64,000 nucleotides of DNA from the IMG/VR virus record IMGVR_UViG_3300035698_010610, positions 26,315 to 90,314 of that record. The stretch is one strand, 5' to 3'. The DNA comes from a virus. The position numbers were made by a program, and so were the translations under genes. The notes below the pieces were generated by a model. That model made no database searches. It worked only from the letters and a program-made list of their open reading frames with translations, and was not told where the DNA came from. Every line of letters begins with the position of its first letter. The first letter of the stretch is position 1. This document shows positions 34,054 to 42,973 of this stretch, piece after piece.

Positions 34054-34986
34054 ATGACCGTATTGAAGATCACGCAAATCAAAGTCGATCAGAGCATTTT
34101 GGGACGGGCAACACTTGATGAAGGGTTGCTTGTTGAATACGAGGAATTGCGACGGACTGAGGAAGCCGTTTTCCCGCCCATCGTCGTATTCAAGGACACC
34201 GCCGAGAATTACTGGCTCGGCGACGGCAACCACCGCTTGCACGTTGAAAAGAAAATCGGCAACAACACGATAGACGTTGACCTCCGCGAAGGGTCGAAAT
34301 CAGACGCCCGATGGTTTGCTGCGGGCGCAAACCTCAACCACGGGCAGCGGCCGTCACGGGGCGACCGGTTGCACGCTATCCAGAATTTGCTGCTTGATCC
34401 TGCACACCAGAAGCGCCCGTTCGTTGCCATCGGCAAACAGTGCGGAGTATCCAAGCAGTATGTCGCCAAAGTTGCCAACGCACTCATTAAGGCTGGCAAA
34501 TTGAAGCCAGCAGCCGTCGGGAGAAAGACGGTTAAAATCACCACAGGCCAACATGCGGGAAAAACTTACGAGAAAGCATCGCCAGGGACCGGCGCGAAGG
34601 CCAAAAAAACAACAAGCCCGGCAACCGCAGCACCCAAGCCCAACGCAGCAAAGAAGAAGGACCAGCGGGGGCACGTTATTCCTGAATACCTCCTTGGCGT
34701 CTGGGCTGGCCGGTCCGTGGTGATGGACATGGTGACGGAACTGTCTGCGATCCCGGCCAAGGTGCAAAAGCTGACGGTGCATGCATCGGGTGCCGGGTCG
34801 ATGATCGAGGTCGGGACGGTGAAGGACTTGCTCGGCGAAGCCCGCACCCGCATCAAGAAGTCTGCCCCGTATGTAATTTGCTCCGACTGCCGCCCGAGCA
34901 ATCATGTGTGCAAGGGCTGCAAGCAATGCGACGGGAAGGGATGGTTGTCCGAAGACGAATATTTTGAATGGAAGCAGGAACACTAA
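34054..34986 (+). CDS. ParB-like nuclease domain, HTH and C-terminal Zn finger
   Basis: FPPIVVF...YWLGDGNHRL...GANLNHG; IGKQCGVSKQYVAKV; CSDC...CKQCDGKGW. Confidence 0.8.
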   Translation: MTVLKITQIKVDQSILGRATLDEGLLVEYEELRRTEEAVFPPIVVFKDTAENYWLGDGNHRLHVEKKIGNNTIDVDLREGSKSDARWFAAGANLNHGQRPSRGDRLHAIQNLLLDPAHQKRPFVAIGKQCGVSKQYVAKVANALIKAGKLKPAAVGRKTVKITTGQHAGKTYEKASPGTGAKAKKTTSPATAAPKPNAAKKKDQRGHVIPEYLLGVWAGRSVVMDMVTELSAIPAKVQKLTVHASGAGSMIEVGTVKDLLGEARTRIKKSAPYVICSDCRPSNHVCKGCKQCDGKGWLSEDEYFEWKQEH

Positions 34987-37900
34987 TGGCGACTCCGCAA
35001 GTTGAACTGCGGCCGTACCAGAGCGAAGCGGTCGTCAAATTATTCGAGGCGTTCCCGGACAACAACCGCATTCTTGTGTCCATGCCAACCGGTGTGGGCA
35101 AGACGGTTGTTGGGATGTACGCCGCGACGGTCTGGCCCGACGCTTGCGAGGCATTAGGGCTTCCGCCGAAAGTCTTGTGGTTGGCGCACCGCGAGGAGTT
35201 GGTTTTCCAGGCCGTCACCCAATTCCGCAACATGAGCGGCGAAGAGGCGGGCGTCGAAAAAGCGTACGACACGGTGACCAGCAGGCCGCTACTGGAACGC
35301 CCCCGCGTTGTTGCCGCGAGCATCCAGACGCTATTCTCCGAGGAGCGGCGGCTCCTGTTTGCCCCCGATGAATTCGGGTTGATCGTGATGGATGAATGCG
35401 TTGACGGCCTCGCGGCAGTAGAAACAGAACTTGGGACTATTCCACTCAGCGAAGCGGTGCGGCGTAAGGCCAAACGAGTGTTGACGCATGATGGAACATC
35501 TGCTAAGTTCGGTCGCATTGAGGCGTGGGCCAGTAAAGGCCGCCGGGCGGTGTTGCGGGTAGCGACATACGGTGGCACCATTCGCGTCACGGGGGAACAT
35601 CCAATATGGACACTGCGGGGATGGGTGGAAGCCCGGCACCTAAAGCCCGGCGACGCCGTTGTGCGTGCGGTTGCGGCGTATGGATACCGGCAGTCGACAC
35701 CAGGGGGCGACCGCGAAAGTGCGCCCCTGGTCATTCGACACCCAGAAGTCGCGAAGAATGGTCGGTTGAGTACGAAAAATTTAAGGCGTCACTGCCGCTT
35801 TGTGAGTGTGGCTGCGGCACTAGCGTTACGCCAAACGCGAGTACGCTATCACGGTTTATTAAATGGCGTGGCACGCGAAGCATTCCAAGGTATCGCAAAG
35901 GCCACGATAAGCGGCCGTCCGGGTGGGAGATCACGCTTACGCCTAACGAGCGGTCGGCGATTCTCGGGACGCTACTCGGCGACTTTAGCATCGGCTTACC
36001 GAACCCACGCAGTAAGAACCCCAGGCTATCCGGGAACCATTCAAGCAAGCAGACGGAGTGGGTTCGCCACAAGGCCGCTATCCTCCGGCGGCTGTCGCCA
36101 TCGGTTTCGTTTGCGGCCAATCCTGGGTACGGCGACCAGTTGTGTACGTTTCGGTCAAGTTGCCTCCCGTGTCTGTTGCCGATCTATGATCTCACCCGAC
36201 CGGACGGCGGCCCCAAAGTCATATCGCGGGCATGGCTTGACTCGCTGGGGCCACTGGGGCTCGCGTGGTGGATCTGCGATGACGGCAGTAGTTCCGCCGG
36301 ATGGCAGATTGCACTTCACACTGAGGGCTTTGACGACACCAGTATCAGGGCTGTGGCAATGTGGTTTCGAGCTAAATACGGCGAGGTACGGGTCGCCCAG
36401 TCACGCCGAGGCAATAAAACGGTTCACCTTCGCAAAGCGGTCGCCAGCAAGGTCGCGGCTGCCATCCGGCCGCACGTGCCGCCCTGCATGGCATATAAGC
36501 TGCGATACTGTCCTGTCGGTTGACCCTGACGGATCGCGTGAAGTCTACGACCTTGCTGTTGCCGACACGCACTGCTTTTTCGCCAATGGCATTCTCGTGC
36601 ATAATTGTCACCACGGCGTTGCCCCGGCGTGGCAAGAAGTCGCCGACTATTTCGACAAGGGGAGGCTGGTCGGGTTGACGGCTACCACGGATCGGGCCGA
36701 CGAAGTGTCGCTCGGCCAGATGTTCGGTTCAGTGCCGTTCCATTACTCCCTGCCCGATGCGATCAAAGACGGCTACCTGTCGAAGATCAAACAGGAGTAC
36801 ATCCGGGTCGAAAGCCTTGACTTTTCCGGCATCAAATTGGAAGACGGCGACCTGTCTGTGAAGGCGGTAGAGGATCGGATCAACCGCGAACAGACGATCC
36901 ATGAACTCTGTGCCCCGGTCGCCAAATTGGCGGGGGACCGGCAAACGATCATATTCACACCATCGGTCGGCTCGGCTGAGTCGGTTGCGGCGCTGATGTC
37001 GGCACGGTATAGCAAACGCGGTGCGGTCGCTGTCAGCGGTTCGACGAATCCAGACGACCGGAAAGCAGCGGTGGAAGCGTACCTCCGGGGCGACATTCAG
37101 TTTCTCGTGAATTGTGGTGTATTTCTGGAGGGCTTTGACGCCCCGAATACATCCTGCATCGTCATCGCTCGGCCGACTGCATCGCGGGCGCTGTACGCTC
37201 AGATGATCGGTCGCGGGTTGCGCGGCGGCTGGGCGTGCCCTATTGAAGGAAAAGAGGACTGCCTTGTCCTCGACTTGACTGGCAAGGCTGCGGACCACCG
37301 GTTGGTCGGCTCACCCGATTTGCTCGCTGGGAATTACGACAAAGCCGTAACGGATGAGATCAGACGGCGGATGGAGGAGAAGGGGGAGGACGGCGAACCG
37401 AACGACGTGGATGAGATCATTGCGGAGTGCGTCGCTTCGTCCGACGAGCTACGGAAAATGGCGTTCGTGAAAGTTGTTGCTGACGCCAAGCTGTCCCGGA
37501 AGACCATCGACCCGTTTTCGTTGCTGGATGTCGCCGAGGAGGCGTTGCCGGGCTGGTGGGACGCGAAACAACCACTGCCAGAACAGATCGACAAACTGGA
37601 GGCAGCGGGGATCAGACACGAGGGCGACTTCGACTACGCATCCGCCCAGAAGCTGTGCCACGAACTCGACGAACGGCGGGCAGCCGGGCTTTGCACCTAC
37701 AAACAGGCGAAGCAATTGGCGATCCGGGGTTTCGATCCGCACATGAGTTTCGACGCGGCGGGCGTTGTCCTTGACTACCTGGCAACCAGGCCGGGCGGGT
37801 TTGGAATGCAAGGCGAAGACTACAAGCGCAAGGGGTACGCGAAAAAACGCGGGCGGCTGGTGTCGTACGCCGAGGTGAAACACCTTCCCAGGTATTGCGT

Positions 37901-38078
37901 GCCGCCGGGCGTCAAGGTGGACGTGCGGGCGGGCGGCAGCGGCTGGAAGGAATTTCTTACCAAAAAGCGGACGGCATTTCACAAGCCGGACGAAACGCAG
38001 GGCGACCAGTGGTTGATCGAGCAAGGTGATTTTACACTGCGGGTCAGCAAGGATTACGTCACGGATCTGAAATCATAA
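34986..38078 (+). CDS. SF2 DEAD/DEAH-box helicase (intein-containing)
   Basis: LRPYQ, MPTGVGKT, DE|CHH after splicing, GLTAT, FLEGFDAP, YAQMIGRGLR. Confidence 0.93.
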   Translation: MATPQVELRPYQSEAVVKLFEAFPDNNRILVSMPTGVGKTVVGMYAATVWPDACEALGLPPKVLWLAHREELVFQAVTQFRNMSGEEAGVEKAYDTVTSRPLLERPRVVAASIQTLFSEERRLLFAPDEFGLIVMDECVDGLAAVETELGTIPLSEAVRRKAKRVLTHDGTSAKFGRIEAWASKGRRAVLRVATYGGTIRVTGEHPIWTLRGWVEARHLKPGDAVVRAVAAYGYRQSTPGGDRESAPLVIRHPEVAKNGRLSTKNLRRHCRFVSVAAALALRQTRVRYHGLLNGVAREAFQGIAKATISGRPGGRSRLRLTSGRRFSGRYSATLASAYRTHAVRTPGYPGTIQASRRSGFATRPLSSGGCRHRFRLRPILGTATSCVRFGQVASRVCCRSMISPDRTAAPKSYRGHGLTRWGHWGSRGGSAMTAVVPPDGRLHFTLRALTTPVSGLWQCGFELNTARYGSPSHAEAIKRFTFAKRSPARSRLPSGRTCRPAWHISCDTVLSVDPDGSREVYDLAVADTHCFFANGILVHNCHHGVAPAWQEVADYFDKGRLVGLTATTDRADEVSLGQMFGSVPFHYSLPDAIKDGYLSKIKQEYIRVESLDFSGIKLEDGDLSVKAVEDRINREQTIHELCAPVAKLAGDRQTIIFTPSVGSAESVAALMSARYSKRGAVAVSGSTNPDDRKAAVEAYLRGDIQFLVNCGVFLEGFDAPNTSCIVIARPTASRALYAQMIGRGLRGGWACPIEGKEDCLVLDLTGKAADHRLVGSPDLLAGNYDKAVTDEIRRRMEEKGEDGEPNDVDEIIAECVASSDELRKMAFVKVVADAKLSRKTIDPFSLLDVAEEALPGWWDAKQPLPEQIDKLEAAGIRHEGDFDYASAQKLCHELDERRAAGLCTYKQAKQLAIRGFDPHMSFDAAGVVLDYLATRPGGFGMQGEDYKRKGYAKKRGRLVSYAEVKHLPRYCVPPGVKVDVRAGGSGWKEFLTKKRTAFHKPDETQGDQWLIEQGDFTLRVSKDYVTDLKS
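35397..36605 (+). mobile_element. Intein (403 aa) inserted in helicase motif II
   Basis: Block A CVDG, block B RVTGEHPIW, blocks F/G VYDLAVADTHCFFANGILVHN followed by Cys+1. Confidence 0.92.
35606..36523 (+). CDS. LAGLIDADG homing endonuclease with N-terminal CxCGC repeats, encoded in an alternate frame inside the intein
   Basis: AILGTLLGDFSI, HSSKQTEWVRHK, LGPLGLAWWICDDGS, LHTEGF, IRPHVPPCMAYKL (LAGLIDADG_2/I-SceI-like); CACGC and CECGC. Confidence 0.88.
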   Translation: MDTAGMGGSPAPKARRRRCACGCGVWIPAVDTRGRPRKCAPGHSTPRSREEWSVEYEKFKASLPLCECGCGTSVTPNASTLSRFIKWRGTRSIPRYRKGHDKRPSGWEITLTPNERSAILGTLLGDFSIGLPNPRSKNPRLSGNHSSKQTEWVRHKAAILRRLSPSVSFAANPGYGDQLCTFRSSCLPCLLPIYDLTRPDGGPKVISRAWLDSLGPLGLAWWICDDGSSSAGWQIALHTEGFDDTSIRAVAMWFRAKYGEVRVAQSRRGNKTVHLRKAVASKVAAAIRPHVPPCMAYKLRYCPVG

Positions 38079-38096
38079 CCAAAGGCAGGCACTGCA

Positions 38097-38345
38097 ATGA
38101 CAAAGGCTACGCAACAGCGGGTTCCGGTAAGCGAAAAGGCCGTGTATCAGCGAATGACCCGGGCTTTGGCTCGACGCGGCCAGCAACTCTTCAGGCACCG
38201 GCGGGTGAAGGACGCCGAGCATACCGGCAGATTCTACACCGTCGACCTACGGCGGAACTGCATCGCCGATGTTGACGTTGATTTAGACAAACACGCCCGC
38301 GACCTTGGGGTGCTGAAACCCTGGGAGGAAATCCGGGTACGATGA
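38097..38345 (+). CDS. Small conserved hypothetical protein abutting array 1
   Basis: VSEKAVYQRMTRALA...GRFYTVD...DLDKHARDLGVLKPWE; stop codon is 2 nt before the first separator. Confidence 0.7.
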   Translation: MTKATQQRVPVSEKAVYQRMTRALARRGQQLFRHRRVKDAEHTGRFYTVDLRRNCIADVDVDLDKHARDLGVLKPWEEIRVR

Positions 38346-38347
38346 AC

Positions 38348-38905
38348 GGCTGTAACGGATTGGAGCGGGACGGACTGGACTGGAAAGGCAGGGAGCGGAA
38401 AGGGCAGGAAAGGAGCGGCTGTAACGGACCGGCGCGGCGTGAATTGGATTGGAAGGGGTCGGAAGGGACGGGACCGGCTGTAACGGAAGGGATCGGACAG
38501 GAACGGAAGAGACCGGAGCGGAGGGGCAAGGAAAGGATCGGACAGGCCGTAAAGGAGCGGAGTGGAAAGGATCGGATTGGATTGGAGTGGAATGGACCGG
38601 CTGGACCGGACTGGAGCGGACGGGATTAGAGCGGACCGGATCGGAATGGATCGGCTGTAACGGATCGGAGTGGAAAGGACCGGACCGGATGGGAGTGGCT
38701 CGGATTGGAGCGGCCGGACCGGCTTGAACCACCGTGCGTAACGGACTGGAACGGCTGGCCGTGGAGCGGAAAGGGCAGGAACGGCACGGCTGTAATGGAT
38801 CGGACGGGCATGGAAGGGAGCGGCTCGGAAGGGAATGGCCGTAGCGGCGTGGAAGGGAGTGGCTTGGAGCGGATTGGAATGGAGCGGAACGGAGCGGAGA
38901 GGCAG
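38348..38905 (+). repeat. Phased GGA-NN pentamer array 1 (putative guide-RNA array), 9 units
   Basis: About 92 pentamers GG(A>C/G)NN; GGC(T/C)GTA(A/G)(C/A/T) separators at 38348, 38417, 38476, 38545, 38653, 38788 and 38837. Confidence 0.92.
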
Positions 38906-38973
38906 GAGGGGCAATCGCACCCGTCAATGTTTGGCGGGGCACGGCAACTGCGTTTTACGAAAGGTTTGATACG

Positions 38974-39756
38974 ATGGCAAAGAAACCTGTGGCAAGTGGT
39001 AGCGGCAAGGGAGGCAACGGAAAAGGGCGGGTGGAAATCCAACCGCTCGACATGGACTACGTGGTCATCCGCATCGCGGGCGACTCACCACTGATGATGA
39101 ACAACAAAGCGGCCTGCGTCGAGGAGGTCAACGCCCGCTACTCATCGGTTGGCGGCGGGAAGGCGAAGGTGCCGAAGAAGGAAAAGACCATTGACTCAGT
39201 CTACCAAGGGGCTTTCTATACGCTCCCGAGCAGTCCGGGGCAACCGCCCGCGCCGAATGGACTGTACGGTATCCCCGCGAGCGGAATGAAGAAGTGCATC
39301 TGCTCCGCGATCCGTCCGGCCGGGTTCAGCGACAACACCACCATCGGCCTGATCGGCAAGAGTTTTCGCGTGCTGCCGGACGAAGGCGGGTTGATTCTCC
39401 TGCGTCACAACGGGTTCGCGATGGACACCCGCGCCGTGGCGGTCGGCACCACCGGCAAGATGCCGGAACTGCGCTATCGCCCAATTTTTCCCGAGTGGGA
39501 GTGCCACCTGCGGATTACGTTCAACCGCGCCGTGCTGTCGATTGAATCGTTGGGCAATCTCTTGCAGCATGCCGGGCAGTATATCGGCTGGGGAGAACTC
39601 CGCGCCGAGAAAAAGCAGGGCGAGTGCGGCGGGTTCGTCGTGACCGATGCCAAGCTGCCGAAGTGGGCGTCGGATGCGTACTGGAACGTCTCTGTCGACA
39701 AGATCGGTTTCCGTGTCAACGCGAAGAATCGCACGACGCGGCGGGCTAGTCGGTAA
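38974..39756 (+). CDS. RAMP/Cas7-like RNA-binding protein
   Basis: VVIRIAGDSPLMMN (beta1), YGIPASGMKKCI (cf. RAMP IPGSSLKG), RYRPIFPEWE, C-terminal G-rich loop GQYIGWGELRAEKKQGECGGF. Confidence 0.75.
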   Translation: MAKKPVASGSGKGGNGKGRVEIQPLDMDYVVIRIAGDSPLMMNNKAACVEEVNARYSSVGGGKAKVPKKEKTIDSVYQGAFYTLPSSPGQPPAPNGLYGIPASGMKKCICSAIRPAGFSDNTTIGLIGKSFRVLPDEGGLILLRHNGFAMDTRAVAVGTTGKMPELRYRPIFPEWECHLRITFNRAVLSIESLGNLLQHAGQYIGWGELRAEKKQGECGGFVVTDAKLPKWASDAYWNVSVDKIGFRVNAKNRTTRRASR

Positions 39757-39783
39757 TCACCCCACCACGGAGGACTCGCCACA

Positions 39784-40335
39784 ATGGCGAAGGCAAAGAA
39801 GAAAACGGAACTGGTCATCGGTTCGGGGTTTCACATTTCCCGCACTGAAGGCACGTCACTGATCGCGTTCATCAAGTCGCACTTCAAGGGCCGAGTGCCG
39901 AGGGGCAGTCCGGAAAAGCTGGTTGCGGCAGCCCGGCCTGCGACAAGCCCGATCCACTCGCTATTCGAGTGGAACGACAAGAAGGCGGCATTGCTGGAAC
40001 GCAAGCGGCGGGCAGAATACCTGCTGCGGGCCATTCAGCGCCGCGAGGTGGAGGTGACAGTTGGTTCCATACCGGGAAAAATCGTCACCGTCAGCCAGTC
40101 GATTGCCGTGAAACACAAGGGGCACCATGCTGTCATTTACGCGCAAGCTGGCGAACTGACGGCAACGGACATCAACTACGTTCTCGACCGCGCTCTGGTC
40201 GAGTTTCGGAGTTGGCTGAATCGTTACCGCAACTATGCCGAGTTTCGCAACCTGTTCGATCCGGTGATTGCCGAATTTGAAAAGGTGGAGGTGAAGATCG
40301 GTACATTCAGCGGGCGGCACAAAAAAACCGCCTAG
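39784..40335 (+). CDS. Conserved partner protein of the RAMP-like gene
   Basis: SPEKLVAAARPATSPIHSLFEWNDKKAA...RAEYLLRAI; C-terminal ALVEFRSWLNRYRNY; GGAGG RBS. Confidence 0.75.
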   Translation: MAKAKKKTELVIGSGFHISRTEGTSLIAFIKSHFKGRVPRGSPEKLVAAARPATSPIHSLFEWNDKKAALLERKRRAEYLLRAIQRREVEVTVGSIPGKIVTVSQSIAVKHKGHHAVIYAQAGELTATDINYVLDRALVEFRSWLNRYRNYAEFRNLFDPVIAEFEKVEVKIGTFSGRHKKTA

Positions 40336-40345
40336 TGCATTCCCC

Positions 40346-40380
40346 GCTGCCGCGCCGTGGCATTGCTGCGGCGTGGTGGC
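40346..40380 (+). other. G-U-rich RNA hairpin leading array 2
   Basis: GCTGCCGCGCCGTGGCA pairs with TGCTGCGGCGTGGTGGC using several G-U pairs, so the full stem forms only on the + strand RNA. Confidence 0.6.
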
Positions 40381-40682
40381 GGCTTTGTAATGGACCGGAG
40401 CGGAAGGGATCGGATAGGGGCGGCTCGGACCGGAATGGAGCGGAGCGGCTGTAACGGAGCGGCGTGGATCGGAGCGGCGTGGATTGGAGCGGATGGGACC
40501 GGACTGGAGCGGCTGTAAAGGAGCGGCGTGGATCGGACCGGAAGGGACAGGACTGGAGCGGCTGTAACGGAGCGGAGTGGATGGGACCGGAGAGGAGTGG
40601 ATTGGACCGGAGAGGACCGGCTGTAACGGAGCGGAATGGCCCGGAGTGGAGGGGCTCGGAGTGGAGTGGACCGGATTGGCTG
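40381..40682 (+). repeat. Phased GGA-NN pentamer array 2, 5 units
   Basis: About 50 pentamers; separators at 40381 (GGCTTTGTAAT), 40447, 40511, 40560 and 40619. Confidence 0.92.
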
Positions 40683-40697
40683 GACCGTCGCCTGGCA

Positions 40698-40754
40698 CCC
40701 GTCGTCGCTGCGGAAGGTTTGGAACACCACGACGCAGCGGCGGCGGGTTTTTTT
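40698..40754 (+). terminator. Intrinsic terminator closing array 2
   Basis: CCCGTCGTCGCTGCG...CGCAGCGGCGGCGGG followed by T7. Confidence 0.75.
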
Positions 40755-40782
40755 CAAACGTGTTTTGGGGATAATGAAGGGG

Positions 40783-41586
40783 ATGCCAAAGCACATCAGT
40801 GTCAGCCAAATATCGATGCATTCCAAGTGCGGCGAGCAATTCAGACGCCGCTACGAAGAGGGTGAAATTTGCCCGCCGGGCTTCGCGGCCTTGACCGGGA
40901 GCGGAGTTCATGCGGGCGCTGCTCACGCAATGGAGTGGAAGCGGGAGCATGGAGGGAACGTCAGCCCGGACGACGTTCGGGACGTTGCCGTGGCGGGTTT
41001 GGATGAACGCTTCGGTGCGGATGGAGCCATGCTGACTTCGGAGGAAACGGACCAGGGCGTGGCGGCATCGCTCGGAGCGGCGAGGGACCGCACCGCCGCG
41101 CTCGCTCACTTTTGGGGCTGCGTGGTTCAGCCGGAATACAACGCCCCGCAGTGGGTAGAGGAGCGATGGGAATTCGGATTGCCGAACGGGCAGACGTTGC
41201 TTGGCATCACGGACCTTGCAACGCCAGGGCTTGTGACGGATTGGAAGACCGGGCGGCGGAAATTGTCGCAGCGAGAGGCCGACACCTCATTGCAATTGAC
41301 AGCGTACGCTATCGCATACCGCCGCCGATACGGCGTGATGCCAAACGTCCGGCTCGACTGCCTCACCAGCAGGAAGCAAACCACGCGGACCGTGCTGAAC
41401 GCTTCACGGGGCATGACCCATGTTGAACAGTTCGCGGCGAGGTTGCGGGCGTTCACGAAGTCGGTAGCTTCCGGCTCGTTCGTTCCGTGCCTGCCGACGG
41501 AATGGTTCTGCTCAGAGAAATGGTGCGGGTATGCGAAGACGTGCCCCTATTACATTCCAGACCTTGAGGAAAAGGATGACGACTGA
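40783..41586 (+). CDS. PD-(D/E)XK (RecB/Cas4-like) exonuclease
   Basis: ISVSQISMHSKCG, GSGVH, LGITDL...VTDWKTG, LQLTAYA, C-terminal CSEKWCGYAKTC. Confidence 0.85.
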   Translation: MPKHISVSQISMHSKCGEQFRRRYEEGEICPPGFAALTGSGVHAGAAHAMEWKREHGGNVSPDDVRDVAVAGLDERFGADGAMLTSEETDQGVAASLGAARDRTAALAHFWGCVVQPEYNAPQWVEERWEFGLPNGQTLLGITDLATPGLVTDWKTGRRKLSQREADTSLQLTAYAIAYRRRYGVMPNVRLDCLTSRKQTTRTVLNASRGMTHVEQFAARLRAFTKSVASGSFVPCLPTEWFCSEKWCGYAKTCPYYIPDLEEKDDD

Positions 41587-42479
41587 TGGCGAAACAAGCG
41601 ACAGCGAAACCGGTAACGGCCATTGCGCTGATCGGGCGGGACCGAACGCAGGTCGGAGCGTTGTTCAACAAAGTGGCCCCGACGCTGGCCCGTATCCTAC
41701 CGGACGGCGTTGACGCCAAGCGGCTCGGCGAGATCGCCATTGTCACGCTCCGCAAAACGCCGAAACTCTCAGTCTGCACGCAGGCGAGTTTCTTCGGAGC
41801 CATCGTTGAGTGCGGCAAGCTGGGGCTTTACCCGGACGTACGGGGGCACGCTTTCCTGATCCCGCGACGGACCGGACCGATCAACCCAGCGACCAACGAG
41901 AAAACCCATGAGGCCCATTTCCAGCCCGGCTACCAGGGCCTTCTGGAATTGTGCCGCCGCAGCGGGATGCTGACGGTATTTGAATGCCGCCCCGTTTACG
42001 CAAAGGACGAGTTTTTCTACGAGTACGGAACGCAGCCGTTCATGAAACACACCCCGTTCCGCGACGGCCCGGCTGGCGAGTTGGTCGCAGCATACGCGAC
42101 GTGCATTCTGAAGGGCGCACCACGAGCGACATTCCATGTTGTCGAAGCGTGGGAGATCGAACAACTCAAACAGTCGATCAAGCCGAGGGGCGATTCCCCG
42201 TGGCTGCACCCGCTGCATCAGCAGGCGATGTGGATGAAGACGGCGGCCATCAGGTTGCTCAAATACCTGCCGTGGTCGACCGAACAGATGCAGCGTGCCG
42301 TTGCGCTCGACGAGATGGCCGACGCGAACATCGCGCAGCACCTCGGCGAGGACTACGCCGAAGCACTGGATGACTTTTCGCAAGGCGAGGCCGATGGAAT
42401 GGAGGTGACGGCGGACGACCTTGTCGATGCCGAATTCACCGCAACAAAGGACAGCAAGCCGGAGGAAGGGGCGAAATGA
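41586..42479 (+). CDS. recT: RecT family ssDNA-annealing recombinase
   Basis: PKLSVCTQASFFGAIVECGKLGL..GHAFLIP, FQPGYQGLLELCRRSG, SPW...AMWMKTAAIRLLKYLP. Confidence 0.92.
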   Translation: MAKQATAKPVTAIALIGRDRTQVGALFNKVAPTLARILPDGVDAKRLGEIAIVTLRKTPKLSVCTQASFFGAIVECGKLGLYPDVRGHAFLIPRRTGPINPATNEKTHEAHFQPGYQGLLELCRRSGMLTVFECRPVYAKDEFFYEYGTQPFMKHTPFRDGPAGELVAAYATCILKGAPRATFHVVEAWEIEQLKQSIKPRGDSPWLHPLHQQAMWMKTAAIRLLKYLPWSTEQMQRAVALDEMADANIAQHLGEDYAEALDDFSQGEADGMEVTADDLVDAEFTATKDSKPEEGAK

Positions 42480-42973
42480 ACGATGCAGACCCGCTGAACC
42501 TGTCAGCCGAAGAACTCCACGCATTGCAGGTCGTTGGACGCACGGCGAAACACAAACGCAACGACCTTGAGCCCGGCAAAGCATACCCGGTCGACCTCTG
42601 GGTTCGGATCAAAGGGTCGCTTGCCGTTGGCACCGACTCCACCTCCACCACGACGGCGAAGCCGAAACCCGAAGACTTGCTGGCCGCGATCCTGTCATCC
42701 CTGCCGGACCCCGCCCGAGCCAACCTGCTCGACGTGATGAACGGCTGGGAAGGCACCCTGCCGGAACCGGAAGAAGGCTGGCTGGCGGCGGCGAAAACGT
42801 ACGTCACCGCGTACGGGGAAACGAAGACCGGCAGCCGCAAAGGGTCAGTGCGCGGAGCGTTCGAGGTCGGCGTGATCTCGGCGGCAGAATTGACCCCACA
42901 AACCAAGGCTAAAGTGGAGAACGCGACCCGGCTAATTACGTTCGACGACGATGAGAAGAAGGCAACTGCGTGA
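42476..42973 (+). CDS. Hypothetical protein
   Basis: ATGA overlap with recT. Confidence 0.65.
   Translation: MNDADPLNLSAEELHALQVVGRTAKHKRNDLEPGKAYPVDLWVRIKGSLAVGTDSTSTTTAKPKPEDLLAAILSSLPDPARANLLDVMNGWEGTLPEPEEGWLAAAKTYVTAYGETKTGSRKGSVRGAFEVGVISAAELTPQTKAKVENATRLITFDDDEKKATA

What the first reader, a model, noticed from the sequence alone, without database searches (positions are those of the whole stretch)
38348..40627. Conserved 9-nt separator defines unit boundaries like a mini CRISPR repeat
Seen: GGCTGTAAC occurs exactly at 38348, 38417, 38476, 38653, 40447, 40560 and 40619. Variants are GGCCGTAAA (38545), GGCTGTAAT (38788), GGCCGTAGC (38837), GGCTGTAAA (40511) and GGCTTTGTAAT (40381). 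It breaks the 5-nt phase by one base. It is usually preceded by GGA(G/C)C, and the four internal copies in array 2 are all followed by GGAGC. Inference: a processing site or filament boundary that yields individual guides; the 183-aa partner protein is a candidate processing or capping factor.
Basis: partly seen in the sequence, partly recalled or inferred. Interest (0 to 1): 0.7.

Follow-up and report, generated by a model that had tools for sequence, protein, structure and literature searches.

The report
Guide boundaries in phage VIPR arrays
The 9-letter motif marks where one guide RNA ends and the next begins in a phage VIPR system, a CRISPR-like DNA-silencing system first described in 2026, so it is real and conserved but belongs to a known kind.

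Summary
GGCTGTAAC occurs 7 times, all at the stated coordinates, against 0.22 expected.

The motif punctuates two same-strand arrays of GGA-NN pentamers. These flank a 260-aa gene and a 183-aa gene in a 90-kb phage record.

The 260-aa protein is a Vipr-type RAMP. Its model matches Csm3/Cas7 (Z 10.7), and its family profile hits the solved SUSP1 Vipr (PDB 36pp, E 3.9e-5; hhalign 93.9%). The locus is therefore a VIPR system (bioRxiv 10.64898/2026.04.26.720920).

In 21 related loci, 118 nine-nt phase breaks defined by GG spacing alone give the consensus GGCYGTARH (G5 117/118, A7 116/118). There are 134 breaks of -1 and 3 of +1. Units are mostly 9-12 pentamers.

I read the separator as one defective repeat. 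It would end each Vipr filament and act as a minimal 3' tail, as in the preprint's "staggered arrays". Cleavage there is inferred, not shown. A processing role for the 183-aa protein has no support.

Differences from the studied type II are GGA instead of GGY and 9 nt instead of a ~40-nt tail. This scan has already reported VIPR loci, including GGA variants, on other DNA.

The parts
38348..38914 (+). vrRNA array 1: GGA-NN pentamers in about 8-9 units. Separators lie at 38348, 38417, 38476, 38545, 38653, 38788 and 38837. Shorter 4-mer breaks (GGCT, GGCC, GGCA) lie at about 38599, 38707 and 38900. There is an irregular stretch at 38712-38742.
38348..38356 (+). Separator GGCTGTAAC, first element of array 1. 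It starts 2 nt after the stop codon of the 82-aa ORF.
38417..38425 (+). Separator GGCTGTAAC
38476..38484 (+). Separator GGCTGTAAC
38545..38553 (+). Separator variant GGCCGTAAA
38653..38661 (+). Separator GGCTGTAAC
38788..38796 (+). Separator variant GGCTGTAAT
38837..38845 (+). Separator variant GGCCGTAGC
38974..39756 (+). vipr: 260-aa RAMP (Cas7/Csm3-like) protein, homologous to SUSP1 Vipr over the thumb and G-loop.
39784..40335 (+). 183-aa accessory gene (vap-like by position). Conserved next to vipr in related loci. Fold and function unknown.
40344..40382 (+). 18-bp GC-rich hairpin between the accessory gene and array 2 (z -4.6). Its 3' foot runs into the GTAAT that precedes the first pentamer.
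40381..40686 (+). vrRNA array 2: 5 units. The 11-nt variant GGCTTTGTAAT is at 40381. Separators lie at 40447, 40511, 40560 and 40619.
40447..40455 (+). Separator GGCTGTAAC
40511..40519 (+). Separator variant GGCTGTAAA
40560..40568 (+). Separator GGCTGTAAC
40619..40627 (+). Separator GGCTGTAAC
40697..40755 (+). Long hairpin followed by a run of 7 T: the likely intrinsic terminator of the vipr-vap-array 2 transcript.

Best explanation
The stretch is a phage VIPR locus: vipr (260 aa), an accessory gene (183 aa), and two arrays of guide RNAs (vrRNAs) written as GGA-NN pentamers.

In the published mechanism, one Vipr protomer binds each repeat. It buries the GG plus the third base and presents the two variable bases, which pair with target DNA with one base skipped.

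The 9-nt separator GGCYGTARY is the boundary between successive guides. It is best parsed as one defective repeat. In the N3-NN-GG register it reads C-YG-UA instead of A-NN-GG, and it overlaps the first repeat of the next guide (A-RY-GG) by the conserved A. That overlap produces the -1 phase shift.

The defective repeat lacks the GG and has the wrong third base, and the next GG is out of register. A Vipr filament therefore cannot continue across it, so every unit assembles its own filament of about 9-12 protomers (inferred).

The separator plus the biased pentamer before it (GGA-A-Y) would act as a minimal 3' tail. The exposed UARY linker is the likely place where the array transcript is cut or trimmed into single guides (inferred, not shown).

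Shown here: anatomy, conservation, phase rule and protein homology. Inferred: filament termination and cleavage.
For: (1) Protein.
- The AF2 model (pLDDT 80) matches only RAMPs at the top of Foldseek (31 hits at E<=1e-3).
- VIA Z is 10.7 over 160 residues to Csm3.
- The family profile hits PDB 36pp_D 'SUSP1 Vipr protein' at E 3.9e-5.
- hhalign to SUSP1 Vipr gives probability 93.9%, E 1.6e-7.
- In that alignment R138/D177/R179 of SUSP1, which are RNA contacts, align to R169/E208/R210, which are invariant in our family.

(2) Arrays.
- 27 of 34 related loci have arrays of 12 or more tokens, all on the gene strand and none on the opposite strand.
- 3 more loci start an array at the contig edge.
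- Of 1947 pentamers, position 3 is A in 1884, and NN uses all bases.

(3) Separator.
- 118 nine-nt breaks in 21 loci were defined only by GG phasing. Counts: C3 97, Y4 114, G5 117, T6 99, A7 116, R8 102, non-G9 114.
- There are 134 breaks of -1 (118 nine-nt plus 16 four-nt, 13 of the 16 starting GGC) against 3 breaks of +1.
- Units between separators peak at 9-12 pentamers. Published vrRNAs have 9-16 repeats.
- Conservation is asymmetric. The pentamer 5' of the separator is biased (A 81/129, non-G 126/129), while NN 3' of it carries 0.02-0.05 bit. This is as expected for a 3' tail followed by a fresh guide.
- Separators are more alike within a locus (0.84) than between loci (0.65).

(4) Literature. 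The preprint describes 'staggered arrays' whose vrRNAs come from 1-nt overlapping positions, so that the end of one marks the start of the next. I saw the text and the legend of fig. S18 only.

(5) Transcription on the + strand is supported by a hairpin plus T7 terminator after array 2.
Against: - No RNA data. No RNA run was listed for the stretch, so neither transcription nor cleavage at the separator is shown.
- No target was found for any unit, so guide function is untested here. In held loci the real units scored no better than shuffled ones. Five exact 1-nt-skip patterns gave 0 hits in IMG/VR.
- The third base is A, not the pyrimidine that the SUSP1 pocket requires. The preprint's fig. 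S12B legend lists GGY>GGA among the substitutions tested in SUSP1, and its text says that perturbing GGY motifs abolished silencing. The RNA contacts here must therefore differ.
- SUSP1 W178 and C173 align to L209 and I204.
- Arrays often begin with a separator, so a 5'-handle role cannot be excluded.
- Some loci use non-GTAA forms (GGCTGCATT, GGCTGAAAC, GGAAGCAAT) or the 4-mer GGCA alone. The phase break may therefore matter more than the GTAA letters.
- I could not see fig. S17 or S18.
Confidence: 0.75

Rival explanations
1. The separators only reset the register. The array is never cut and works as one long transcript carrying several Vipr filaments like beads on a string, with each filament reading its own target.
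For: - No processing enzyme is evident in the locus.
- The 4-mer breaks (GGCT, GGCA, GGCC; 16 cases) leave almost no linker to cut.
- One terminator follows the whole of array 2.
Against: - In the studied VIPR systems the vrRNAs are discrete RNAs of about 100 nt that co-purify with Vipr.
- The preprint's legend speaks of 'individual processed vrRNAs' in staggered arrays.
- The conserved G-T-A-R letters go beyond what a mere 1-nt deletion would need.
Confidence: 0.17
2. The separator is a CRISPR-repeat-like recognition site for a dedicated endonuclease. That enzyme would be the 183-aa partner or Vipr itself acting like Cas6.
For: - The 183-aa gene is found next to vipr and its arrays in 16 of the 37 loci searched (14 of them relatives from metagenomes, viral contigs or a MAG, some of which are duplicate contigs), including the distant Gordonia phage ODay.
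- Separators are locus-specific (within-locus identity 0.84, between-locus 0.65), as expected if a cognate protein reads them.
- Vipr is a RAMP, and Cas6 and Csm3 are RAMP nucleases.
Against: - The 183-aa protein has no Pfam hit.
- Its model is middling (pLDDT 68) and has no fold match at E<=1e-3.
- It is unrelated to SUSP1 vap1.
- Published vap proteins are described as DNA-interacting, not RNA-processing.
- Within-locus similarity can also come from unit duplication.
- A 9-nt unstructured site is unlike Cas6 substrates (recalled knowledge).
Confidence: 0.06
3. The arrays are not guide RNAs. They could be DNA iterons or an origin in the replication module, a repeat-protein gene, or a GGA-rich sponge for a host RNA-binding protein such as CsrA. 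The 9-mer would then be a by-product.
For: - The arrays sit between helicase and exonuclease/RecT genes.
- GGA is the CsrA core motif (recalled).
- The repeats carry few stop codons, so long ORFs appear on both strands.
Against: - There is a strict 5-nt period with only 2 variable bases, and arrays lie only on the vipr strand.
- They are linked to a Vipr homologue in 27-30 of 34 loci whatever the neighbouring genes.
- A 5-nt period cannot be kept by selection on one reading frame, and unit lengths are not multiples of 3.
- There is no Rfam family.
Confidence: 0.02

Closest known systems
VIPR systems with 'staggered' vrRNA arrays (bioRxiv 10.64898/2026.04.26.720920; text and legend of fig. S18 only; type not stated in what I could read)
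   Same: - A Vipr RAMP gene plus an accessory gene in a phage.
- Arrays of pentanucleotide repeats with a fixed GG and variable NN.
- Successive guides abut with a 1-nt overlap, so that the end of one marks the start of the next. This is exactly what the -1 phase break of the 9-mer gives when it is parsed as CYGUA overlapping ARYGG.
   Different: I could not see the figure, so I do not know whether the published staggered arrays carry the GGCYGTARY motif or the GGA core. According to the text, the staggered architecture was not among those confirmed by small-RNA sequencing.
Type II VIPR of Escherichia phage SUSP1 (NC_028808.2; Vipr structure PDB 36pp)
   Same: - A homologous Vipr.
- Two-gene operon flanked by upstream and downstream guide arrays on the same strand.
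- Guides of about 10-12 repeats followed by an invariant 3' element.
- The SUSP1 tails begin GG(T/C)AGT(A/T)AG (4 guides), which resembles the separator GGCYGTAR.
   Different: - SUSP1 repeats are GGY-NN and its pocket excludes purines. Here the third base is A in 1884 of 1947 pentamers.
- Each SUSP1 guide has a tail of about 40 nt with a pseudoknot, plus leader sequence. Here there are only 9 nt between guides.
- The accessory proteins are unrelated.
- This Vipr is larger (260 aa against 195 aa) and has a longer G-loop.
CRISPR arrays with Class 1 Cas7 backbones
   Same: - A RAMP protein that polymerises on a guide RNA.
- An array of variable units separated by a conserved short element.
- Fold match to Csm3/Cas7.
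   Different: - No cas1/cas2 or other cas genes were seen among the eight ORFs of 34054-42973 that I scanned.
- The 'repeat' is 9 nt and unstructured.
- The 'spacer' is itself a 5-nt repeat with only 2 informative bases per unit.
- The period is 5 nt, not 6.

Membership tests
VIPR system (Vipr + vrRNA) | A Vipr protein: a minimal RAMP with an RRM core, thumb and G-loop, homologous to the described Vipr proteins | tested here: met
   - The profile of 22 family members hits PDB 36pp_D 'SUSP1 Vipr protein' at E 3.9e-5.
- hhalign to SUSP1 Vipr gives probability 93.9%.
- The top fold matches are Csm3/Cas7/Cmr/gRAMP, with Z up to 10.7.
VIPR system (Vipr + vrRNA) | Flanking same-strand tandem pentanucleotide repeats with conserved GG and hypervariable NN, 9-16 repeats per guide | tested here: met
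   - 1947 pentamers were counted across the window and the related loci. GG was fixed by the parser, position 3 is A in 1884, and positions 4 and 5 use all four bases.
- Units are mostly 9-12 pentamers.
- Window units have 8-12 pentamers.
VIPR system (Vipr + vrRNA) | Third repeat base is a pyrimidine (GGY), as in the studied types | tested here: not met
   Position 3 is A in 1884 of 1947 pentamers and C or T in 41. The preprint allows 'a related consensus' and names NNNGG, YNNNG and NNNNG. An A-specific core is not named in the text I read.
VIPR system (Vipr + vrRNA) | Adjacent accessory (vap) gene; mostly viral or proviral location | tested here: met
   - Relatives of the 183-aa gene lie next to vipr in 16 of the 37 loci searched, 14 of them related loci that include duplicate contigs.
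- It is not homologous to SUSP1 vap1.
- The record is a virus record of 90,314 nt with phage replication and recombination genes.
VIPR system (Vipr + vrRNA) | vrRNAs are expressed as discrete small RNAs and bind Vipr | not testable with these tools
   No RNA run was listed. This needs small-RNA sequencing and a pull-down.
VIPR system (Vipr + vrRNA) | NN dinucleotides match DNA targets with a 1-nt skip | tested here: inconclusive
   - 152 units were scanned against 394 kb of held sequence. Best match fractions equalled those of shuffled units for skips 0-3.
- 5 exact window-unit patterns gave 0 hits in IMG/VR.
- Mismatch-tolerant searches of large collections were not possible.
VIPR 'staggered array' architecture | Successive vrRNAs derive from positions overlapping by 1 nt; no long tail or ribozyme between them | tested here: met
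   Every separator shifts the GG phase by -1. Across loci there are 134 breaks of -1 and 3 of +1. No ribozyme or other Rfam family is present. I read only the figure legend, so the match to the published drawing is not verified.
Type II VIPR (SUSP1 clade) | About 40-nt conserved 3' tail with a pseudoknot after each repeat tract | tested here: not met
   Only 9 nt lie between units. SUSP1 guides read for comparison have long tails.
CRISPR-Cas | Repeats of 23 nt or more separating contiguous spacers, with cas1/cas2 adaptation genes | tested here: not met
   The separator is 9 nt and the units are themselves 5-nt repeats. No cas family other than the RAMP fold was found in the neighbouring genes that I scanned.

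The most novel reading that the evidence does not exclude
This clade is a distinct VIPR subtype in two respects.

First, the Vipr pocket has switched from pyrimidine to adenine at repeat position 3.

Second, the whole 3' tail has shrunk to one defective, phase-shifted repeat (GGCYGUARY). That repeat would be a self-sufficient stop signal for filament growth, so a single transcript would sort itself into many guide filaments without a structured tail, a ribozyme or a dedicated nuclease.

The similar start of the SUSP1 tails (GGYAGUAG) would then mean that this short stop repeat is the ancestral, universal terminator of VIPR guides.
Probability: 0.3. Interest if true: 0.55.

Novelty: new member of a known kind. 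Interest (0 to 1): 0.3.

Why it matters
VIPR is a newly described RNA-guided DNA-recognition system and a proposed ancestor of the CRISPR RAMPs. This locus adds little to the concept.

It does give a clean comparative definition of the most compact guide boundary: one 9-nt element (118 nine-nt breaks in 21 loci) that always shifts the register by -1.

It also gives a natural GGA code. The preprint's SUSP1 fig. S12B legend lists GGY>GGA among the substitutions tested, and its text says that perturbing the GGY motifs abolished silencing.

Both points are useful for two purposes. One is automatic calling of vrRNAs in metagenomes. The other is the design of multiplexed guide arrays without long tails, if experiments confirm that the boundary is self-delimiting.

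Tried and rejected
Coding repeats: rejected. The period is 5 nt, and units of 40, 50, 55 and 62 nt are not multiples of 3. The long ORFs over the arrays on both strands follow from the stop-poor repeat.

Known RNA families: none at gathering thresholds in the whole window.

DNA iterons, an origin, or a CsrA or Shine-Dalgarno sponge: considered at the start. I dropped them once the linkage to a Vipr homologue on the same strand was seen in the related loci.

RNA evidence: no RNA holder was listed for window 38300-40760.

Targets:
- 152 units against 393,868 positions of held loci plus the 90-kb record, with the arrays masked, for skips 0-3. Real and shuffled units were indistinguishable and none reached 0.9. 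L004, L013, L014, L021 and L022 (duplicates) and L035-L037 (named phages) were dropped before that count.
- Five exact 1-nt-skip patterns from window units gave 0 hits in IMG/VR.
- Unit 40569, read on the reverse strand, spells G-S-G-K/N-T, a Walker A-like string. I found no matching gene.

The 183-aa protein:
- The word-based homologue search found only itself and one relative.
- No Pfam family at E<=0.1 in 10 of 12 members, and two isolated weak hits in the others.
- The AF2 model has pLDDT 68, and Foldseek against the PDB gave no match at E<=1e-3.
- hhalign to SUSP1 vap1 gave probability 0.25%.

The first single-sequence scan of viral contigs found no relative. The alignment-based scan found 4.

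Supplementary figures S17 and S18 of the preprint, which may already show this GGA logo and this separator, could not be seen.

Literature searches: only.
Full report
**Observation.** The + strand of window 38348-38914 and 40381-40686 is built almost wholly of 5-nt units that start with GG, mostly GGA-NN. GGCTGTAAC occurs exactly 7 times in the 64-kb window. All copies are in these two stretches, on the + strand and at the coordinates given. Dinucleotide-preserving shuffles give a mean of 0.22 matches. Each copy is 9 nt between in-phase GG positions, so the 5-nt register moves by -1. The four internal copies of array 2 are followed by GGAGC. The claim 'usually preceded by GGA(G/C)C' holds for 6 of 12 copies. 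Tandem Repeats Finder sees the same periodicity, with periods of 5, 10 and 15 and a 49-nt super-period in array 2.

**Surroundings.** The window is part of a 90,314-nt virus record. The arrays flank two genes on the same strand:
- a 260-aa gene at 38974-39756 (phrog_4652, no Pfam family);
- a 183-aa gene at 39784-40335 (phrog_15946, no Pfam family).

The genes around them are a ParB-like gene, an intein-bearing helicase, a PD-(D/E)XK exonuclease and RecT. An 18-bp hairpin at 40344-40382 (z -4.6) precedes array 2. A long hairpin with a run of seven T (40697-40755) follows it, which fits transcription of the + strand. No Rfam family reaches its gathering threshold in the window.

**What it is.** The 260-aa protein has 59 homologues, of which 22 were aligned as A1. 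One homologue carries an N-terminal 'extension' that is simply a translated GGA-NN array.

Its AlphaFold model (pLDDT 80.3) matches RAMP proteins only among the top Foldseek hits: Csm3, Cmr, Cas7, gRAMP and type VII Cas7, with 31 matches at E<=1e-3. A second look gives Z 10.7, rmsd 3.8 Å and 160 aligned residues to Csm3.

[quoted passage not shown] I read:
- the abstract and outline;
- all of Results;
- the Discussion;
- methods sections 18, 20 and 26;
- passages including the legends of the supplementary figures.

I could not see the figures or the supplementary files.

The preprint describes VIPR systems. These consist of a small RAMP (Vipr), an accessory gene (vap), and vrRNAs of 9-16 YNNGG repeats whose NN dinucleotides pair with DNA while skipping one base. 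They are mostly carried by phages. There are seven types, and the array architectures include 'staggered arrays with overlapping vrRNAs'.

The companion structure preprint (10.64898/2026.04.26.720927) shows one Vipr protomer per repeat in a helical filament. G1 and G2 are held by one protomer, and base 3 sits in a pocket of the neighbouring protomer. I read its abstract, Results section 5 and some passages. Of a third preprint (10.64898/2026.10.15.759431) I saw the abstract and passages. It gave the SUSP1 accession.

**Direct tests of membership.**
- The A1 profile hits the solved chain 36pp_D 'SUSP1 Vipr protein' at E 3.9e-5.
- hhalign of A1 against the SUSP1 gene (read from NC_028808.2) gives probability 93.9% and E 1.6e-7 over the thumb and G-loop.
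- In that alignment SUSP1 R138, D177 and R179, which are RNA contacts, correspond to R169, E208 and R210. These are invariant in A1. SUSP1 W178 and C173 correspond to L209 and I204.
- tblastn against deposited phages finds distant relatives in Gordonia phages, Pseudomonas phage LESphi2 and a cyanophage. Two of these flanks, read, carry GGY-type pentamer repeats.

The window's clade is therefore a branch of the Vipr family that uses GGA.

**Comparative anatomy of the separator.** Related loci came from three sources: viral contigs (L001-L004), a Spongiibacteraceae MAG (L005) and metagenomes (L006-L034).

| Loci | Result |
|---|---|
| 27 of 34 | Array of 12 or more tokens. All arrays lie on the vipr strand and none on the opposite strand |
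| 3 | An array starts at the contig edge |
| 3 | No downstream sequence to test |
| 1 (L008) | No array in 1.8 kb downstream, and only 80 nt upstream |

After dropping two duplicate loci, 1947 pentamers have A at position 3 in 1884 cases, with all bases used at positions 4 and 5. Units between separators peak at 9-12 pentamers.

I then defined breaks only by GG spacing, with nothing required of positions 3-9. After dropping five duplicate loci and three named phages, 21 loci give 118 nine-nt breaks:

| Position | Count of 118 |
|---|---|
| 3 | C 97 |
| 4 | pyrimidine 114 |
| 5 | G 117 |
| 6 | T 99 |
| 7 | A 116 |
| 8 | purine 102 |
| 9 | not G 114 |

There are also 16 four-nt breaks, 13 of them GGCT, GGCA or GGCC, and only 3 six-nt (+1) breaks. 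The register shift is thus almost always -1, and the consensus is GGCYGTARH.

Each locus has its own flavour: GGACGTAAC in L002, GGCTGCATT in L026, GGCTGAAAC in L028 and mostly the bare 4-mer GGCA in L032. Identity is 0.84 within a locus and 0.65 between loci.

Conservation is one-sided. The pentamer before the separator is biased to GGA-A-Y, and in L003 two pentamers are fixed. The dinucleotides after the separator are unbiased.

**Mechanism.** In the register used by the preprint (N3-NN-GG), the separator is a single defective repeat, C-YG-UA. It overlaps the next repeat, A-RY-GG, by the conserved A. [quoted passage not shown]

Vipr protomers hold GG and pass base 3 to the neighbouring protomer. 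A repeat without GG, with C instead of A and followed by an out-of-register GG, should stop filament growth. I therefore read the separator, together with the biased pentamer before it, as a minimal 3' tail and filament terminator. I read the UARY linker as the probable trimming site. These last steps are inference. No RNA run was available.

The four SUSP1 guides I read start their long tails with GG(T/C)AGT(A/T)AG. This resembles the separator and suggests a shared stop element, but with n=4 it is only a lead.

**The partner protein.** Relatives of the 183-aa protein lie next to vipr in 16 of the 37 loci searched. Fourteen are related metagenomic, viral or MAG loci, some of them duplicate contigs, and one is Gordonia phage ODay. 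In the related loci the gene usually follows the downstream array, whereas in the window it precedes array 2. By position it is the accessory gene of this clade.

It is unrelated to SUSP1 vap1 and has no Pfam family. Its model has pLDDT 68 and no fold match at E<=1e-3. Nothing points to RNA processing.

**Targets.** No target was found. Held loci gave no signal above shuffled units, and five exact patterns gave no hit in IMG/VR. One unit (40569), read on the reverse strand, spells G-S-G-K/N-T. This fits the published habit of aiming at codon positions 1-2 of conserved motifs, but no match was found.

**Verdict.** The interpretation as a guide boundary is supported. The CRISPR-repeat analogy is loose, and the processing role of the 183-aa protein is unsupported.

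The system is a member of the VIPR family published in 2026. The differences from the studied type II are the GGA core and the 9-nt tail. This scan has already reported VIPR loci on other DNA, several of them GGA variants with staggered arrays: 62 findings in at least 52 genomes. The novelty is therefore modest.

Noticed in passing
window 34968-38078: The helicase gene carries an intein (Pfam Intein_splicing, residues 185-546). A 305-aa ORF at 35606-36523 lies in another frame over the same DNA. I did not test this.
   Followed up: no
L003 4063-4150: Directly after the long vrRNA array of this related viral contig comes a second, unrelated tandem repeat of about 12 nt (AACCGACAACAA-like, about 6 copies), just before the accessory gene.
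   Followed up: no
L037 (Escherichia phage SUSP1) 27500-28030 and 29062-29510, minus strand: The four SUSP1 guides begin their invariant tails with GG(T/C)AGT(A/T)AG. This resembles the 9-nt separator GGCYGTAR of the window's clade and may be a shared stop element.
   Followed up: partly
window 39082-39084 (residue D37 of the 260-aa protein): A nearly invariant Asp follows strand 1 in the motif G-D-x-P-L. From memory, Csm3 has its catalytic Asp in a similar loop. SUSP1 Vipr has Thr at that position. Whether this clade cuts RNA was not tested.
   Followed up: no
window 40569-40618: The variable dinucleotides of this unit, read on the reverse strand as codon positions 1-2, spell G-S-G-K/N-T-S-G, a Walker A-like string. 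No matching gene was found.
   Followed up: partly
L036 (Gordonia phage ODay) 3110-3320; L035 (Pseudomonas phage LESphi2) 2030-2500: These deposited phages carry distant Vipr homologues annotated as hypothetical proteins. Next to them are GGY-NN pentamer tracts with 4-mer phase breaks. They are probably unannotated VIPR loci.
   Followed up: partly
window 38097-38345: An 82-aa ORF ends 2 nt before array 1. It has no family and no relative in the related loci. Its role is unknown.
   Followed up: partly
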